A stretch of 64,000 bases of DNA from Limisphaerales bacterium (GTDB taxonomy: Bacteria > Verrucomicrobiota > Verrucomicrobiia > Limisphaerales > UBA1412), in assembly GCA_050949405.1 (NCBI GenBank), contig JBMNFQ010000001.1:2346727-2410726 (forward strand), in the 5' to 3' direction. Shown here in pieces: positions 42,107-64,000 of this stretch. Numbering within the stretch: position 1 is the first letter of the stretch; every line of letters starts with the position of its first letter. Both the position numbers and the translations under genes were made by a program. A model generated the notes under the pieces. It was not told the origin of the DNA, searched no databases, and saw only the letters and a list, made by a program, of their open reading frames with translations.

Positions 42107-42319
42107 ATGGCCGAGATAGAAGACCGCTGGTTATCAGTAGACGAGATAGGCAAGGACCTCGGTGTCAGTAGTGACACCGTTTACTGCTGGATCGACAAGC
42201 ATGCGATGCCCGCCCATCGCATGGGCCGTCTTTGGAAGTTCAAGAAAGATGAAGTCGACGAGTGGGTTCGCAAAGGCGGAGCAAGTGAGACCAGCGGTGA
42301 GCATGACGGAAAAGAATAA
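42107..42319 (+). CDS. Excisionase-like (HTH_17) DNA-binding protein
   Basis: WLSVDEIGKDLGVSSDTVYCWI...MPAHRMGRLWKFKKDEVDEWV; GAGGAG RBS. Confidence 0.85.
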   Translation: MAEIEDRWLSVDEIGKDLGVSSDTVYCWIDKHAMPAHRMGRLWKFKKDEVDEWVRKGGASETSGEHDGKE

Positions 42320-43094
42320 ACAATTATCCCGGTTCGGGTTCAGCTTCGAACGCGGAGGCGCTCATACTTCTCGCACCATGATGCTTGAGGAGCTGGGAGC
42401 CTTATTGACCTATGTCGACCGGCCCGAGGCTGAGAAGAGCGATTACCTCCAGGCGATAGATGACGAGAACTGCCTGGGCAAGCGCTCAGGTAAGACCCGC
42501 ACGCTCACATATCGACACCTCGTTGATCTTTACTCGCTCGACCGCACCAACGTCCTTTTTCGGGCTCTTCTCTACTTTTGGAATCGCGACATTGATGGAC
42601 AGCCATTGCTGGCACTGCTCTGCACATACGCTCGGGACTCCATTTTCCGGTCTACAGCACCGTTCATTCTGAAATTTCCGGAAGGCGCAACGATTACCCG
42701 TGAGTCTCTAGAGGAGTTTATTGACGCCCAGGAGCCAGGTCGCTTCAGCAAGGCGACGCTGAAGTCAACGGCGCAAAACATCAATTCAACGTGGACCAAG
42801 TCCGGCCACCTCTATGGACGCGCCCGAAAAGTGCGCTCCCGCGCTAATCCTACCGCCGGGAGCGTCTCTTACGCTTTGCTTCTTGGCTATCTCACCGGCG
42901 TGCGGGGACAGGCGCTGTTCCAAACGGAATACGCCAAGTTGCTCGATTGCACGTTCGACAAAGCCATTGAACTTGCCGAATCGGCCTCTCGCAAAGGCTG
43001 GATCGTGTTCAAGCGTGTGGGTGACGTCATCGAGGTTCTGTTTCCGAACCTGATCAATCAAGAAGAAATGGAGTGGCTTCGTGAGCAGAGTTAA
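42303..43094 (+). CDS. brxA: BREX BrxA-like protein
   Basis: First-gene position before brxB/brxC, 263 aa from ATG 42303, helical; call rests on synteny and family resemblance. Confidence 0.65.
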   Translation: MTEKNKQLSRFGFSFERGGAHTSRTMMLEELGALLTYVDRPEAEKSDYLQAIDDENCLGKRSGKTRTLTYRHLVDLYSLDRTNVLFRALLYFWNRDIDGQPLLALLCTYARDSIFRSTAPFILKFPEGATITRESLEEFIDAQEPGRFSKATLKSTAQNINSTWTKSGHLYGRARKVRSRANPTAGSVSYALLLGYLTGVRGQALFQTEYAKLLDCTFDKAIELAESASRKGWIVFKRVGDVIEVLFPNLINQEEMEWLREQS

Positions 43095-43632
43095 GCGGCT
43101 GATACAGTCCTACAGCAAATACATCTCCGTTCCATGGCGCGATGATGCCGCTGCTGCACAGCGCGTGATCTTCTGCGTCTACAACGAAACGGAGGAACGC
43201 TGGCTGCGGGCCAAGGTCGATGAGTTTGAAATCGTCACGCGACAGTCAGGCCACGAGTGGGCCATGTTCGACCTGACGGATACCTTTGCCATTTGGCTCG
43301 CCTCGCAACGATACGCCAAGAGCTACTTTCAGAAACCGCATCTGCTCTCCACGCTACTGCCGAAATACCTCGCATTCATCACCGATGAATTCGAAACCTT
43401 CCTCCAAAAGAACGAGATCGGACCCGGTTCCGTCGTGGCAATTAAAGGCGTCGGTTCGCTTTTCGGATTTCTGAAAGTGAAAGAGGTCGTCGACAAGTTG
43501 GCCCCGATGGTCAAGGGACGGCTGCTGGTCTTTTTCCCGGGAAGCTATGAAAACAACAACTACAGGCTGCTGGATGGCTATGACGGGTGGAACTATCTCG
43601 CCGTACCGATCACTGCGGACAAGGAATATTGA
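43081..43632 (+). CDS. brxB: BREX BrxB (DUF1788-like)
   Basis: GVGSLFGFL, GRLLVFFPGSYENNNYRLLD...NYLAVPI; position before brxC. Confidence 0.82.
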   Translation: MSRVKRLIQSYSKYISVPWRDDAAAAQRVIFCVYNETEERWLRAKVDEFEIVTRQSGHEWAMFDLTDTFAIWLASQRYAKSYFQKPHLLSTLLPKYLAFITDEFETFLQKNEIGPGSVVAIKGVGSLFGFLKVKEVVDKLAPMVKGRLLVFFPGSYENNNYRLLDGYDGWNYLAVPITADKEY

Positions 43633-61180: not shown

Positions 61181-61191
61181 AGAGGCTGTCG

Positions 61192-64000
61192 ATGAGAATC
61201 CTGCAGGTACGCTTCAAGAATCTGAACTCACTGGTCGGCGAATGGCAAATCGACCTGATGCACCCGGCCTTCGCGTCTGACGGAATCTTCGCCATCACAG
61301 GTCCCACCGGCGCGGGGAAGACCACGATCCTCGATGCTATTTGCCTCGCCCTTTACGGGCGGACGCCTCGCTTGAACAAGGTCACCAAGAGCGGAAACGA
61401 AATCATGTCCCGCCAGACCGGCGAATGCTTTGCCGAGGTGACCTTCGAAACCCAGTCTGGGCGTTACCGCTGTCACTGGAGCCAACACCGGGCACGCAAG
61501 AAGCCGGATGGTGAACTCCAGGCCCCGAAGCACGAAATTGCCAATGCCGATTCCGGCGAAATTTTCGAATCCAAGATCAGAGGTGTAGCCGACCAGATCG
61601 AGTCCGCTACCGGCATGGACTTTGACCGTTTTACCCGCTCCATGTTGCTGGCCCAGGGCGGCTTTGCCGCGTTCCTTCAGGCGGCACCGGATGATCGGGC
61701 TCCGATCCTGGAGCAGATAACGGGCACAGATATCTACAGCCAGATATCCATCCGTGTCCATGAGCGCCAACGTGAGGAGCGGGAAAAACTGAACCTGCTC
61801 CAGGCTGAAACGGCAGGTATCGTGATTCTTGACCCGGAGCAGGAACAAGAGATCGGGCAGGCACTCGAGACAAAGCAGAAGGAAGAGACAGACCTTGCCG
61901 CCAAATCCGCTGACACCGGGAAGGCCATTGCCTGGCTCACTACCATCGATGGGCTGAAGAAGGAAATCATCAACCTGGCCGATGAAGCGAGCAAGCTGCA
62001 GGGCGATATCGAGGCATTCAAACCGGACCGTGAAAAGCTGGACCGGGCTTTGAGCGCCGCCTCACTGGACGGCGCATACGCAACGCTCACCGCCACCCGC
62101 AAACAACAGGCGGATGAAAGAGCAGGCTTGAAAGCTGAGGAAGAGGCTCTTCCTGGACTGGAATCCTCCGCCAAGGAACAGGCCGAAGTACTGAAATCGG
62201 CTGAGCAACAAACCGCTCGGGCAAAAGAAGAGCTGAAAGCGGCCACGCCTACATTGCAAAAGGTTCGCTCCCTGGATCAGAAACTTGCCGATCAGAAAAA
62301 AGCTGTTTCGGAAGGTGATGAGGGCTGCAAGAAGGATGCGGCCAAGATTGACGCTGACAAAAAAGTCCGGCTTGATGAGCAGGTAAAGCGATCTACGGCC
62401 CATGAGACGCTGGAGCTTGTAGGCGGCTACCTCAAGGAGCATGCACAGGATGAATGGCTGATAAGTGGTCTGGCTGGCGTTGAAGAACAGATCGGCGGCC
62501 TGCTCTCCAAACAAAAAGAAATCGTTCAAAAAGAGGCTGCTCAAGAAGCGGCCAATACGACTCTGGAACTGGCGACAAAGTCACTCGACGACTGTCAAAA
62601 GCAATCCGGCATTCGGAAGCAGGAACTGGAGGACGCCTTAAAACAGCTTCAGCAGGGCAAAGATGCATTGAGCCAGTTGCTGGGAGACCGCTTGTTGCGG
62701 GAATACCGCACCGAGAAGGAAACCCTGCTGCGTGAAATGGCCTTCCTGACCAAAATTGCGGAACTTGAAGATCACCGGGCAAAACTGGAAGACGGCAAGC
62801 CCTGTCCGCTCTGCGGCGCGACCGAACACCCCTTCGCGGAAGGGAATGTCCCTGTCCCCGATGAAACCGAACGGAAGATCGATTCCCTGGCCAGCCTGAT
62901 CAGCAAAGCCGAGGACCAGGAAGCCGCCATCAAGAAACTCGAAGACGCTGAACGACTGGCCCGCACAAACCTTACGGATGGTGAAAAGCTGGAGTCAGCA
63001 GCGGCTAATGACAAGAAGGCTGCCGAGAAAGCCCTCGCCGAGGTGAAGGACGGCCTGGTGAAACTCCGTGCCGATTTTGCCGAACACAGGCAGGCTGTTG
63101 CTACCAAGCTCCAGCCGCTTGGTATTGCGGACATCTCCGAAACGGACATTTCATCACTGATCGAAACCCTCACGGCGCGGCTGAAGGCGTGGCAGGCCCA
63201 GGTCAAGAAAAAGGCGGACATCGAGAAACAGATTGCCGACATCGACAGCGAGGTGAAGCGGCTGGATGCGGTTATCGAAACTCAAAGCACCGCCCTGAAT
63301 GAAAAGCTGGAACGCCTGGAGACCTTGAAAAAGGATCTCGCCACCGGAAGTGATGAGCGCAATGCACTGTACGGCGACAAGAATCCCGACGATGAGGAGC
63401 GCCGTTTAAACAAGGCGATTTCGGATGCCGAAGGTGCCGAAAAGCAGGTCAGAGACCGGCACAATGAGCTCCAACAAAAATGGAATACCGCGAAGGCCCA
63501 TGTCGAATCTCTGAAGAAACGCATCGACCTACGAGAACCGGAACTGAGAAGGCTTGAAACAGAATTCTCCGCAGCGCTCGCGCCTGTTGGCTTTTCAAAT
63601 GAAGAACAGTTCCTGGCGGCCATACTGCCCTCTGAAGCTCGGGCGGAGCTGACAGCCACGGCCAAGGATCTTGATGAGCGTCAAACAGATCTGAAAGCCA
63701 GACAGAAGGATCGGGAAACGCGCTTGGCTAAGGAAGTGGCCAGCAAGATCACCGACAAATCATTGGAAGAGCTCGAGCCCCAATTCAAAAAGCATGAGGA
63801 GGCCCTGAAAGAGCTACGGGACATCATTGCCGGTCTCAAGCACAAGTTGAGTGAAAATGCGGCCGCTAAAGAGCGGATAAAGGAAAAGCAGGCAGCTATC
63901 GAGGCCCAGAAAAAAGAGTGCCGCAGGTGGGAAAACCTGCACGAATTGATCGGCTCCGCAGACGGAAAGAAGTACCGCAATTTTGCCCAGGGGCTGACCT
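61192..64000 (+). CDS. sbcC: SbcC (Rad50-family) ATPase, runs off the window end
   Basis: Not in the ORF track because it has no stop. MRILQVRFKNLNSL...ITGPTGAGKTTILDAICLALYG, LLAQG, zinc hook CPLC near 62805, ends in frame at IGSADGKKYRNFAQGLT. Confidence 0.95.
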   Translation, partial: MRILQVRFKNLNSLVGEWQIDLMHPAFASDGIFAITGPTGAGKTTILDAICLALYGRTPRLNKVTKSGNEIMSRQTGECFAEVTFETQSGRYRCHWSQHRARKKPDGELQAPKHEIANADSGEIFESKIRGVADQIESATGMDFDRFTRSMLLAQGGFAAFLQAAPDDRAPILEQITGTDIYSQISIRVHERQREEREKLNLLQAETAGIVILDPEQEQEIGQALETKQKEETDLAAKSADTGKAIAWLTTIDGLKKEIINLADEASKLQGDIEAFKPDREKLDRALSAASLDGAYATLTATRKQQADERAGLKAEEEALPGLESSAKEQAEVLKSAEQQTARAKEELKAATPTLQKVRSLDQKLADQKKAVSEGDEGCKKDAAKIDADKKVRLDEQVKRSTAHETLELVGGYLKEHAQDEWLISGLAGVEEQIGGLLSKQKEIVQKEAAQEAANTTLELATKSLDDCQKQSGIRKQELEDALKQLQQGKDALSQLLGDRLLREYRTEKETLLREMAFLTKIAELEDHRAKLEDGKPCPLCGATEHPFAEGNVPVPDETERKIDSLASLISKAEDQEAAIKKLEDAERLARTNLTDGEKLESAAANDKKAAEKALAEVKDGLVKLRADFAEHRQAVATKLQPLGIADISETDISSLIETLTARLKAWQAQVKKKADIEKQIADIDSEVKRLDAVIETQSTALNEKLERLETLKKDLATGSDERNALYGDKNPDDEERRLNKAISDAEGAEKQVRDRHNELQQKWNTAKAHVESLKKRIDLREPELRRLETEFSAALAPVGFSNEEQFLAAILPSEARAELTATAKDLDERQTDLKARQKDRETRLAKEVASKITDKSLEELEPQFKKHEEALKELRDIIAGLKHKLSENAAAKERIKEKQAAIEAQKKECRRWENLHELIGSADGKKYRNFAQGLT

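What the first reader, a model, noticed from the sequence alone, without database searches (positions are those of the whole stretch)
42107..64000. One ~22 kb translationally coupled operon stacking BREX with four additional nuclease/ATPase modules
Seen: 12 co-oriented genes with overlaps or gaps of at most 23 nt and no internal terminator that I could find: HTH-brxA-brxB-brxC-pglX-[PHP-SMC]-[GmrSD]-pglZ-brxL-[HARE-HTH]-sbcD-sbcC. Established: type 1 BREX is brxABC-pglX-pglZ-brxL and is known to host accessory defences internally. Inference: a layered system covering unmodified DNA (BREX), modified DNA (GmrSD, formerly an Mrr-like gene), a likely abortive backup (PHP-SMC) and DNA ends or hairpins (SbcCD). 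I do not recognise this full combination as described.
Basis: partly seen in the sequence, partly recalled or inferred. Interest (0 to 1): 0.72.

Follow-up and report, generated by a model that had tools for sequence, protein, structure and literature searches.

The report
BREX island with mobile sbcCD cassette
This is a horizontally acquired anti-phage island: a complete type 1 BREX system with two extra defence genes inserted in its usual cargo slot, followed by a broken restriction gene fused to an sbcCD nuclease cassette that is shared between many bacterial phyla. The layout is a patchwork of known modules, and only the travelling sbcCD cassette looks new.

Summary
Twelve co-oriented ORFs (42107 to beyond 64000) overlap or lie at most 23 nt apart. 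One strong promoter-like site sits upstream, and no intergenic gap is long enough for a terminator.

The parts are:
- an HTH_17 gene;
- the six BREX-1 genes (PglZ "type B");
- a TrlF-family PHP/ABC ATPase (Ppl-like, but not a Ppl equivalog) and a GmrSD enzyme (HEC-06/Orf5-like, not BrxU) between pglX and pglZ;
- then "HARE-HTH", sbcD and sbcC.

Two corrections apply.
1. The HARE-HTH ORF is not a gene module. It is the first 133 codons of a 352-aa HARE-HTH/Mrr restriction gene that is intact after brxL in a close relative. Homology stops 7 nt before the sbcD ATG.
2. sbcCD is not housekeeping. It is a cassette 84–95% identical in nucleotides across many phyla, with homology starting at the sbcD start codon. 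It usually sits tightly behind variable defence genes (PDC-S06 ATPases, SIR2-HerA, BREX, type I and III R-M).

In 47 of 58 related BREX loci, at least 1 kb of cargo lies between pglX and pglZ, as published work on embedded defences would predict. The locus is a mosaic, not a co-evolved five-layer system. Function and co-transcription are untested.

The parts
41984..42012 (+). Promoter-like site TTGACA-17-TATATT (11/12), candidate operon promoter
   Evidence: The same sequence is conserved in L167.
42030..42053 (+). Perfect 9-nt inverted repeat GGGGATGCT-N6-AGCATCCCC between promoter and first ATG. Candidate operator or 5' hairpin.
   Evidence: Near-identical (one arm mismatch) in L167. Function is inferred only.
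42107..42319 (+). 70-aa HTH_17 / excisionase-type DNA-binding protein (MAD1-like). Probable regulator; overlaps brxA by 17 nt.
   Evidence: Pfam HTH_17 2.5e-13. PADLOC mad1 5.6e-13. NCBIfam excise domain 62 bits, above its 28.8 cut-off; MADS1 66 bits, below its 80 cut-off. A homologue sits directly upstream of brxA in 16 of 43 related loci.
42303..43094 (+). brxA
   Evidence: PADLOC BrxA 3.9e-111, full length.
43081..43632 (+). brxB
   Evidence: PADLOC BrxB 2.7e-81; Pfam BrxB.
43647..47084 (+). brxC (ATPase). Probable ATG at 43644 or 43647; the longest ORF starts at GTG 43587.
   Evidence: PADLOC BrxC 1723 bits, with model position 1 at residue 21 of the long ORF. Walker A GFYGSGKS.
47108..50533 (+). 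pglX, N6-adenine DNA methyltransferase / specificity subunit
   Evidence: PADLOC PglX 1866 bits; Pfam Eco57I, N6_Mtase. Motif IV is NVPY at residue 485.
50530..53352 (+). Embedded cargo 1: PHP domain + ABC/SMC-type ATPase, TrlF family (Ppl-like)
   Evidence: NCBIfam TrlF_fam_ATP 554.9 bits (cut-off 350); Ppl_antiphage 238.8 bits (cut-off 1000). PADLOC Ppl 1.7e-56. Walker A GGRGSGKS. PHP motif I reads CDLQMQT.
53361..55157 (+). Embedded cargo 2: GmrSD-family type IV restriction enzyme (DUF262+DUF1524)
   Evidence: Pfam GmrSD_N 1.9e-37 and GmrSD_C 8e-17. PADLOC Orf5 and HEC-06. DGQQR at residue 76, EHIFP at 485. No phmmer hit to BrxU.
55154..57505 (+). pglZ, BREX-1 'type B'
   Evidence: NCBIfam BREX_PglZ_1_B 967.7 bits (cut-off 400). 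PADLOC PglZ 1095 bits.
57502..59547 (+). brxL (Lon-like ATPase/protease)
   Evidence: Pfam BrxL_ATPase 2.6e-132, BrxL_N and Lon_C. PADLOC BrxL 1008 bits.
59544..59954 (+). Remnant of a HARE-HTH/Mrr_cat type IV restriction gene. It keeps the first HARE-HTH domain and about 30 residues of the second. The ORF is kept open and its TGA overlaps the sbcD ATG.
   Evidence: 92% identical to the first 133 residues of the 352-aa L016 protein (2x HARE-HTH + Mrr_cat). Nucleotide homology to L016 ends at 59943/59944.
59944..59950 (+). Recombination junction: last 7 nt before the sbcD ATG, not homologous to the intact mrr locus
   Evidence: The same last ~18 nt (GAAGGCGTTGGYTACCAA) precede sbcD in L098.
59951..61180 (+). 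sbcD (Mre11-type nuclease), first gene of the mobile sbcCD cassette
   Evidence: Pfam Metallophos + SbcD_C. TIGR00619 214 bits (cut-off 77.65). Colinear with E. coli SbcD 6s6v at 8e-78. 75-96% aa identity in 80 species.
61192..64000 (+). sbcC (Rad50-type ATPase), first 936 codons; runs off the window
   Evidence: Pfam AAA_23. NCBIfam SbcC models. Walker A GPTGAGKT and zinc hook CPLC at residue 538. Cassette homologues are 1081-1094 aa.
39076..41949 (+). Upstream amidoligase_2 - DUF5049 - GATase_6 - GGACT cluster that is co-inherited with this BREX in some relatives. Possibly part of the same mobile island.
   Evidence: Pfam. 95% nt identity to L165 and 94% to L167, contiguous with HTH-brxA there. 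No PADLOC hit.

Best explanation
The region is a horizontally acquired, mosaic defence island, not one co-evolved system.

**Core.** The core is a complete type 1 BREX system of the PglZ 'type B' lineage, preceded by a small HTH_17 protein (probable regulator) and one strong promoter-like site. By family knowledge, PglX methylates host DNA and the complex blocks replication of unmethylated phage DNA.

**Embedded cargo.** The pglX-pglZ junction is the lineage's cargo slot. Here it holds two genes:
- a TrlF-family PHP/ABC ATPase related to the single-gene anti-phage protein Ppl;
- a GmrSD-type nuclease of the HEC-06/Orf5 kind, expected to cut modified phage DNA that escapes BREX.

**After brxL.** An ancestor carried a HARE-HTH/Mrr type IV restriction gene translationally coupled to brxL. 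Recombination replaced everything after its codon 133 with a mobile sbcCD cassette, with the junction 7 nt before the sbcD ATG. The stump stays open, so its stop overlaps the sbcD start.

**The sbcCD cassette.** Its closest relatives carry no recognisable ribosome site or promoter of their own, so it appears to depend on being docked behind another operon. I infer that the stump now serves mainly to deliver ribosomes and transcription to sbcD. The encoded SbcCD is most likely an active ATP-dependent nuclease for hairpins and blocked ends, contributing to destruction of incoming or already-cut foreign DNA.

**Shown:** gene content, junctions, truncation, cassette mobility and recurrence of the cargo slot. 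**Inferred:** co-transcription, translational coupling and every defence activity.
For: **BREX core.**
- All six core genes match PADLOC models full length, and PglZ is above the NCBIfam type-B cut-off.
- Catalytic and ATPase motifs are intact.
- The host flank (infB, tgt, cstA) is 45-49% GC against 53-65% for the island.

**Cargo slot.**
- 47 of 58 related loci have at least 1 kb between pglX and pglZ.
- The same TrlF+GmrSD pair, in a 4.6-4.7 kb insert, is in L025 (86%/74% aa). L006 and L008 hold a TrlF homologue (71%) next to a distant GmrSD-like gene (23%).
- Embedded defences in BREX are published (PMC8565348; 10.1101/2024.01.29.577857).

**Mrr remnant.**
- L016 (BrxL 98% over the part its contig holds) has a 352-aa 2x HARE-HTH + Mrr_cat gene in the same position.
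- Nucleotide homology ends abruptly at 59943/59944.

**Cassette.**
- SbcD is 75-96% aa identical in 80 species, including isolates of Desulfobacterota and of Alpha-, Beta- and Gammaproteobacteria.
- Nucleotide identity is 84-95% over 4.05 kb, starting at 59950-59960 in nearly all loci. It ends about 16-20 nt before the sbcC stop.
- Neighbours are defence genes: PDC-S06 in at least 21 of 60 upstream genes, HerA in 5, BrxL as second neighbour in 12, SIR2 in 5, plus type I and type III R-M.
- An upstream ORF overlaps sbcD or ends within 15 nt of it in 42 of 78 loci.

**SbcCD as a barrier to foreign DNA.** PMC12624138 (listed) and 10.64898/2026.07.06.735840 report this for chromosomal SbcCD.
Against: - No transcript, methylation or phage-resistance data exist for this locus.
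- The promoter and terminator scans are consensus matches only, and the host's promoter type is unknown.
- sbcCD has no hit to any validated defence model in PADLOC. No paper I could find assigns a defence role to a mobile sbcCD, so its role could be repair.
- The TrlF protein lacks the two His of PHP motif I, so its phosphoesterase activity is doubtful.
- The 3' end of sbcC and the right border of the island are outside the window.
- Many comparison loci are MAG contigs whose taxonomy may be wrong, although isolates show the same pattern.
Confidence: 0.75

Rival explanations
1. One reading: the 12 genes form one integrated, co-selected five-layer immune system (BREX + PHP-SMC abortive backup + GmrSD + HARE-HTH + SbcCD) that functions and is inherited as a unit.
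For: - Tight packing, a single strand and one promoter-like site.
- All enzymatic motifs are intact.
- The same HARE-sbcD-sbcC junction is seen in four metagenome samples.
Against: - Among 80 BrxL relatives, no other species has HARE-sbcCD after brxL. What follows brxL is heterogeneous and includes housekeeping genes.
- The HARE ORF is a truncated Mrr gene.
- Identity to relatives differs by module. Against L025 it is pglX 57%, TrlF 86%, GmrSD 74%, pglZ 71% and BrxL 86%, which indicates mosaic assembly.
- sbcCD occurs with unrelated partners elsewhere.
Confidence: 0.12
2. sbcCD here is a DNA-repair helper, not an antiviral effector. It is carried in defence islands to process self-inflicted breaks or blocked ends made by neighbouring nucleases (GmrSD, Mrr, R-M, PglZ), lowering the autoimmunity cost.
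For: - It is a canonical, colinear SbcD/SbcC with all repair-enzyme motifs.
- It is always next to DNA-cutting or DNA-sensing defence genes.
- No defence-model hit.
Against: - Many hosts would be expected to have their own recombination and repair nucleases, though this was not checked.
- The cassette is often coupled to ABC ATPases of candidate defence families (PDC-S06), not to nucleases.
- Chromosomal SbcCD is reported to restrict a phage with unprotected hairpin ends and to limit conjugation (PMC12624138).
Confidence: 0.25
3. sbcCD is simply the host's housekeeping sbcCD that happens to border the island. The junction with the Mrr stump is a deletion end-point.
For: - The NCBIfam SbcD subfamily model is met, and the protein resembles proteobacterial SbcD.
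- The right-hand context is unseen.
Against: - 84-95% nucleotide identity to cassettes in other phyla, with homology starting at the ATG.
- 56% GC against 45-49% for the host genes.
- Below the enterobacterial equivalog cut-off (394.8 against 450).
- The same ~18 nt pre-ATG sequence and stump ending occur in L098, behind a type I R-M locus.
Confidence: 0.05

Closest known systems
Type 1 BREX with embedded accessory defence: pEFER BREX + BrxU (Picton et al. 2021, PMC8565348); 'guilt-by-embedding' survey (Payne et al. 2024, bioRxiv 10.1101/2024.01.29.577857)
   Same: - brxA-brxB-brxC-pglX-[cargo]-pglZ-brxL order.
- The cargo includes a GmrSD-family type IV enzyme, giving complementary cover of unmodified and modified DNA.
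- The cargo sits at the pglX-pglZ junction.
   Different: - PglZ is of the 'type B' lineage, with no sequence-detectable solved relative.
- The regulator is a 70-aa HTH_17 protein.
- The GmrSD is HEC-06/Orf5-like and has no detectable similarity to BrxU.
- A second cargo gene (TrlF-type) and a downstream mrr stump plus sbcCD are present.
Ppl (PHP + ATPase single-gene anti-phage protein; name as used by PADLOC and NCBIfam)
   Same: An N-terminal PHP domain followed by an ABC/SMC-like ATPase with a long helical insert. PADLOC Ppl model matched at 1.7e-56.
   Different: - It scores 238.8 against the NCBIfam Ppl equivalog cut-off of 1000, but passes the TrlF family cut-off.
- PHP motif I has Gln-x-Gln where homologue L005 has His-x-His.
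- No experiment exists for the TrlF family that I could find.
E. coli SbcCD (Mre11/Rad50; PDB 6s6v)
   Same: - Colinear full-length match at 8e-78.
- Phosphoesterase motifs, SbcD_C domain, Rad50 Walker A and CxxC zinc hook are all present.
- Expected hairpin and blocked-end nuclease.
   Different: - It belongs to a clade spread by horizontal transfer, at 84-95% nt identity across phyla.
- It lies in defence islands, docked directly behind variable defence genes without its own upstream region.
- It is below the PRK10966 equivalog cut-off.
Mrr-family type IV restriction enzymes with N-terminal HARE-HTH domains
   Same: The N-terminal 133 residues are 92% identical to such an enzyme in L016.
   Different: The Mrr_cat nuclease domain and most of the second HARE-HTH are missing, so the ORF cannot be a restriction enzyme.
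Lamassu / other SMC-Rad50-derived defence systems (PMC12663957; PMC10586767)
   Same: Rad50-like ATPase plus nuclease logic in a defence-island context. PADLOC LmuB models hit SbcC weakly (8.7e-23).
   Different: These are true SbcC/SbcD orthologue-like proteins. There is no LmuA/LmuC-type effector, and no defence phenotype is known.

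Membership tests
BREX type 1 | Six core genes brxA, brxB, brxC, pglX, pglZ, brxL, co-oriented and in this order | tested here: met
   Full-length PADLOC matches for all six. The order is interrupted only between pglX and pglZ.
BREX type 1 | PglZ of a BREX-1 subfamily above the curated cut-off | tested here: met
   NF033450 BREX_PglZ_1_B 967.7 bits against a cut-off of 400.
BREX type 1 | PglX with N6-adenine methyltransferase catalytic motif; BrxC and BrxL P-loops | tested here: met
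   NVPY at PglX residue 485. Walker A present in BrxC and BrxL.
BREX type 1 | Methylation of a non-palindromic host motif and exclusion of unmethylated phage | not testable with these tools
   Needs methylome sequencing and plaque assays.
Ppl anti-phage protein | Score above the NCBIfam equivalog cut-off (NF042955, 1000 bits) | tested here: not met
   238.8 bits, with only residues 7-677 matched.
Ppl anti-phage protein | PHP domain with a His-x-His first motif | tested here: not met
   The sequence is CDLQMQT. The Gln variant is shared by L025, L006 and L061; L005 has HMH.
TrlF family AAA-like ATPase (NCBIfam NF045780) | Full-length match above the cut-off of 350 bits | tested here: met
   554.9 bits, residues 6-939 on model positions 1-944.
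GmrSD type IV restriction enzymes | DUF262 (GmrSD_N) with DGQQR plus DUF1524 (GmrSD_C) with a His-Me finger | tested here: met
   Both Pfam domains are above gathering score. DGQQR at residue 76, EHIFP at 485.
BrxU subfamily of GmrSD | Detectable sequence similarity to BrxU (PDB 7P9K) | tested here: not met
   phmmer against PDB at E<=0.01 returns DUF262 9jfl, 20yv and SspE, but not BrxU. The best PADLOC models are Orf5 and HEC-06.
Mrr-type restriction endonuclease | Mrr_cat (PD-(D/E)xK) nuclease domain | tested here: not met
   The window ORF ends at residue 136 with only HARE-HTH. The intact L016 homologue has Mrr_cat at residues 208-323.
SbcCD (bacterial Mre11/Rad50) | SbcD: calcineurin-type phosphoesterase + SbcD_C, above the subfamily cut-off | tested here: met
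   TIGR00619 214.1 bits against 77.65. Pfam Metallophos and SbcD_C. Colinear with 6s6v.
SbcCD (bacterial Mre11/Rad50) | Enterobacterial housekeeping equivalog (PRK10966 / PRK10246) | tested here: not met
   SbcD 394.8 bits against a cut-off of 450. SbcC 423 bits against 750, but SbcC is truncated by the window end.
SbcCD (bacterial Mre11/Rad50) | SbcC Walker A, zinc hook, and C-terminal signature/Walker B | tested here: inconclusive
   Walker A and the CPLC hook are present. The C-terminal ATPase half lies beyond position 64000.
MADS (methylation-associated defence system) | MAD1 equivalog cut-off (NF047737, 80 bits) and the other mad genes | tested here: not met
   The HTH scores 66.2 bits, below 80. 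mad2, mad3 and mad8 hits are weak side-hits of PglX, TrlF and SbcC.
Single translationally coupled operon | No intergenic space for terminators or promoters; start/stop overlaps | tested here: met
   Junction table. No intergenic terminator-like site.
Single translationally coupled operon | One continuous transcript | not testable with these tools
   Needs RT-PCR across junctions or long-read RNA-seq.

The most novel reading that the evidence does not exclude
The sbcCD pair belongs to a previously undescribed class of promoter-less, horizontally mobile 'docking' cassette. Copies in many phyla share 84-95% nucleotide identity, with homology bounded by the sbcD start codon and the end of sbcC. 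The cassette inserts behind, and is translationally coupled to, whatever defence operon it lands in: PDC-S06 ABC ATPases, SIR2-HerA, BREX, R-M, or an Mrr stump. There it acts as a genuine anti-phage or anti-plasmid nuclease, alone or as the effector of the upstream ATPase. That would be a repair complex recruited into immunity without sequence remodelling.
Probability: 0.3. Interest if true: 0.75.

Novelty: new variant of a known kind. Interest (0 to 1): 0.48.

Why it matters
The BREX part is a textbook example of the published rule that BREX carries accessory defences between pglX and pglZ. It adds a well-populated 'type B' lineage in which about 80% of loci hold cargo, which makes it a useful place to look for new defence genes.

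The more interesting point concerns sbcCD. A canonical DNA-repair nuclease circulates between phyla as a sharply bounded cassette attached to the 3' end of diverse defence operons. If it defends, it would link Mre11/Rad50 end and hairpin processing directly to prokaryotic immunity, and it would provide a simple, clonable test case. If it does not, it shows that defence islands carry repair functions, perhaps to limit self-damage.

The Mrr stump also shows how gene decay and cassette docking can mimic an 'extra gene' in an operon.

Tried and rejected
- **Plasmid or E. coli origin.** Nucleotide searches of the 22 kb against PLSDB, and of the sbcCD cassette against PLSDB and E. coli genomes, found only trivial matches.
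- **Source contig beyond position 64000.** An exact-protein look-up of SbcD returned only 2-4 kb metagenome contigs with the same HARE-sbcD-sbcC order, so the end of sbcC and the right border remain unseen.
- **MADS.** I considered it because of mad1, mad2, mad3 and mad8 side-hits. I rejected it because everything is below cut-off and is explained by BREX, TrlF and SbcC.
- **Recombination tract.** I looked for a clear tract in the window-versus-L016 identity profile. Identity is patchy at 85-100% throughout, with no clean left crossover.
- **Origin of the TrlF name.** The literature search was swamped by an unrelated acronym and gave nothing usable.
- **Krishnan et al. 2020 ABC ATPase classification.** The paper is not held in the library.
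- **tRNA integration site.** No tRNA gene is present in the window.
- **Solved structures.** Nothing informative for TrlF, and nothing at all for PglZ type B.

Full report
**1. What is in the sequence**

Twelve + strand ORFs run from 42107 to the window end.

| Gene | Coordinates | Junction with the next gene |
|---|---|---|
| HTH | 42107-42319 | overlap 17 nt |
| brxA | 42303-43094 | overlap 14 nt |
| brxB | 43081-43632 | gap 14 nt (11 nt from the alternative ATG at 43644) |
| brxC | 43647-47084 | gap 23 nt |
| pglX | 47108-50533 | overlap 4 nt |
| PHP-ATPase | 50530-53352 | gap 8 nt |
| GmrSD | 53361-55157 | overlap 4 nt |
| pglZ | 55154-57505 | overlap 4 nt |
| brxL | 57502-59547 | overlap 4 nt |
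| HARE ORF | 59544-59954 | overlap 4 nt |
| sbcD | 59951-61180 | gap 11 nt |
| sbcC | 61192 to beyond 64000 | runs off the window |

- The best sigma-70-like match of the scanned 20 kb is TTGACA-17-TATATT at 41984-42012, just upstream of the first gene.
- Every + strand terminator-like match lies inside a coding region.
- The total number of terminator-like matches (30) is not clearly above shuffled expectation (21.7 +/- 4.4).

Co-transcription remains an inference.

**2. The BREX core**

- PADLOC models of BrxA, BrxB, BrxC, PglX, PglZ and BrxL all match end to end.
- NCBIfam places PglZ in "BREX-1 PglZ type B" (967.7 bits, cut-off 400).
- PglX has an NVPY catalytic motif, and BrxC and BrxL have P-loops.
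- The first gene is a 70-aa HTH_17/excisionase-type protein. A homologue overlaps brxA in 16 of 43 related loci, including seven of the eight whose BrxA is at least 92% identical.
- The system is foreign to its host. The left 32.8 kb of the window carries infB, tgt and cstA at 45-49% GC, while the island is 53-65% GC.
- BrxL is 82-99% identical in 80 species, from Proteobacteria to methanogen MAGs, so this BREX lineage is itself highly mobile.

**3. The pglX-pglZ cargo**

In 58 BrxL-related loci where both genes are visible:
- 11 have no insert;
- 20 have 0.3-2.5 kb;
- 27 have more than 2.5 kb.

The window's 4.6 kb insert holds two genes.

*Cargo gene 1: PHP domain + ABC/SMC ATPase.*
- It passes the NCBIfam TrlF-family cut-off (554.9 against 350).
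- It is far below the Ppl equivalog cut-off (238.8 against 1000), although PADLOC's Ppl model matches at 1.7e-56.
- Its PHP motif I reads C-D-L-Q-M-Q-T. The Gln-for-His change is shared by homologues in L025, L006 and L061, whereas L005 keeps H-M-H.

*Cargo gene 2: a GmrSD enzyme.*
- Both Pfam domains are present, with DGQQR and an EHxxP His-Me motif.
- It is closest to PADLOC Orf5 and HEC-06.
- It has no detectable similarity to BrxU.

The TrlF+GmrSD pair occupies the same slot in L025 (86%/74% identity). L006 and L008 pair a TrlF homologue (71%) with a distant GmrSD-like gene (23%). Either gene occurs alone in others.

Nested defences in BREX, and GmrSD in particular, are already described (PMC8565348; bioRxiv 10.1101/2024.01.29.577857).

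**4. The "HARE-HTH gene" is a stump**

- In L016 (Verrucomicrobia MAG, BrxL 98% identical over the part its contig holds), the gene overlapping the brxL stop is 352 aa: two HARE-HTH domains plus Mrr_cat. It is followed by a UvrD-like helicase and DarT.
- The window ORF is 92% identical to its first 133 residues and then stops.
- At the DNA level, homology ends at 59943/59944, 7 nt before the sbcD ATG.
- The window therefore keeps only the 5' third of a type IV restriction gene.
- A second, independent stump lies in L098, behind a type I hsdR. It is 147 aa, with a HARE domain 64% identical to the window's. It ends in the same residues (KALATK* in L098, KALVTK* in the window) and shares the same last ~18 nt before sbcD.
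- This suggests that the cassette enters HARE/Mrr genes at a homologous spot.

**5. sbcCD is a mobile cassette**

*The enzyme.*
- SbcD is a colinear, motif-intact homologue of E. coli SbcD (8e-78 to 6s6v).
- SbcC has its Walker A and CPLC zinc hook.

*Distribution.*
- The pair is 75-96% identical in protein in 80 species of many phyla. These include isolates of Desulfobulbus, Castellaniella, Nitrosomonas, Spongiibacter, Acidithiobacillus, Legionella and Zymomonas.
- Nucleotide identity is 84-95% over all 4.05 kb available. The alignment starts at 59950-59960 in nearly every locus.
- It ends 16-20 nt before the sbcC stop.

*Flanks differ completely between loci.*
- BREX-1 (type A PglZ) + PDC-S06 ATPase + sbcCD + GmrSD in L083 and relatives.
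- Type III R-M + SIR2-HerA + sbcCD in L084.
- Type I R-M + stump + sbcCD in L098.
- BREX type B + AAA_13 gene + sbcCD in L079.

*Neighbour counts.*
- Of 60 upstream neighbours, at least 21 match PDC-S06 models and 5 match HerA.
- Among second-upstream and first-downstream neighbours, 12 are BrxL and 5 are SIR2.
- In 42 of 78 loci a co-directional upstream ORF overlaps the sbcD ATG or ends within 15 nt of it. A handful of others, where sbcD appears to start further upstream, were not resolved.
- Short upstream ORFs are often C-terminal pieces of the partner ATPases.
- The window's pre-ATG sequence shows no well-placed ribosome site.

I therefore read the cassette as dependent on the operon it docks behind.

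*Absence elsewhere.* The cassette is absent from PLSDB plasmids and from E. coli genomes. No PADLOC model covers it.

**6. How it most likely works**

By family knowledge:
- BREX marks self DNA and blocks unmethylated phage.
- GmrSD cuts hypermodified DNA.
- The TrlF protein is an ATP-driven sensor-effector of unknown trigger.
- SbcCD cleaves hairpins and protein-blocked ends.

Chromosomal SbcCD has been reported to attack unprotected hairpin telomeres of phage N15 (PMC12624138) and to limit conjugation (bioRxiv 10.64898/2026.07.06.735840). An anti-invader contribution is therefore plausible, but a repair or anti-autoimmunity role is equally open. None of this is tested for the locus.

**7. 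Verdict**

- The interpretation as one integrated five-layer system is only partly right. The locus is a mosaic built by at least three events: arrival of the BREX unit, cargo insertion, and sbcCD docking with loss of Mrr.
- Only the TrlF+GmrSD pair recurs.
- BREX with nested cargo is known biology.
- I could not find the travelling sbcCD cassette described in the literature held here.

Noticed in passing
window 39076-41949: An amidoligase_2 - DUF5049 - GATase_6 - GGACT (AIG2-like) cluster at 63-65% GC lies directly upstream of the BREX promoter. It is co-inherited with HTH-brxABC in L165 (95% nt) and partly in L167 (94% nt). It has no PADLOC hit and could be a further island module of unknown role.
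   Followed up: partly
window 50566-50586 (TrlF residues 13-19); L025, L006, L061, L005: PHP motif I reads CDLQMQT. The two metal-binding His are Gln in four of five homologues (53-87% identical), while L005 keeps HMH. This is a lineage feature and not a sequencing error; it suggests altered or lost phosphoesterase chemistry.
   Followed up: partly
window 42030-42053: A perfect 9-nt inverted repeat (GGGGATGCT N6 AGCATCCCC) lies between the promoter-like site and the HTH start codon, and is near-identical (one arm mismatch) in L167. Candidate operator for the HTH protein, or a 5'-UTR hairpin.
   Followed up: partly
window 33842-36175 (- strand): An AAA_25 (RepA/primase-helicase-like) gene and two ORFs without Pfam hits lie between the last host gene (cstA, 31090-32769) and the GC jump at about 35-36 kb. 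They are probably the remains of the integrative element that brought the island. No tRNA gene is present in the window.
   Followed up: partly
window 36142-38556: A 63% GC stretch has long overlapping ORFs on both strands. The + strand ORF (718 aa) matches only the C-terminal third of DUF4815, so it is probably a truncated gene fragment.
   Followed up: no
L110, L130, L135, L138, L139, L150, L159 (sbcC): In these cassettes the SbcC ATPase head regions are conserved, but the central coiled-coil part is replaced by unrelated sequence, giving longer proteins (1223-1244 aa). The cassette therefore has at least two coiled-coil variants.
   Followed up: no
L001-L080: BrxL of this BREX lineage is 82-99% identical from Proteobacteria to Methanosarcina and Methanotrichaceae MAGs, while PglX in the same loci is only 52-78% identical. 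BrxL is extremely conserved or recently transferred, next to a fast-diverging specificity subunit.
   Followed up: partly
L016 2983-7771: Downstream of the intact HARE-HTH/Mrr gene in the close relative lie a UvrD-like helicase, a DarT ADP-ribosyltransferase, and two ORFs that look by eye like ADP-ribosylglycohydrolases (not scanned). This DarTG-like module is what the sbcCD cassette displaced or replaced in the window lineage.
   Followed up: partly
window 59432-59453: A terminator-like hairpin followed by a T-run lies inside the last 115 nt of brxL and is identical in L016. It could attenuate read-through into the downstream genes.
   Followed up: no
L158 7061-7174: A homologue (78% identical) of the window's HTH_17 protein lies about 500 nt upstream of the sbcD cassette, in a locus without BREX genes in view.
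   Followed up: no
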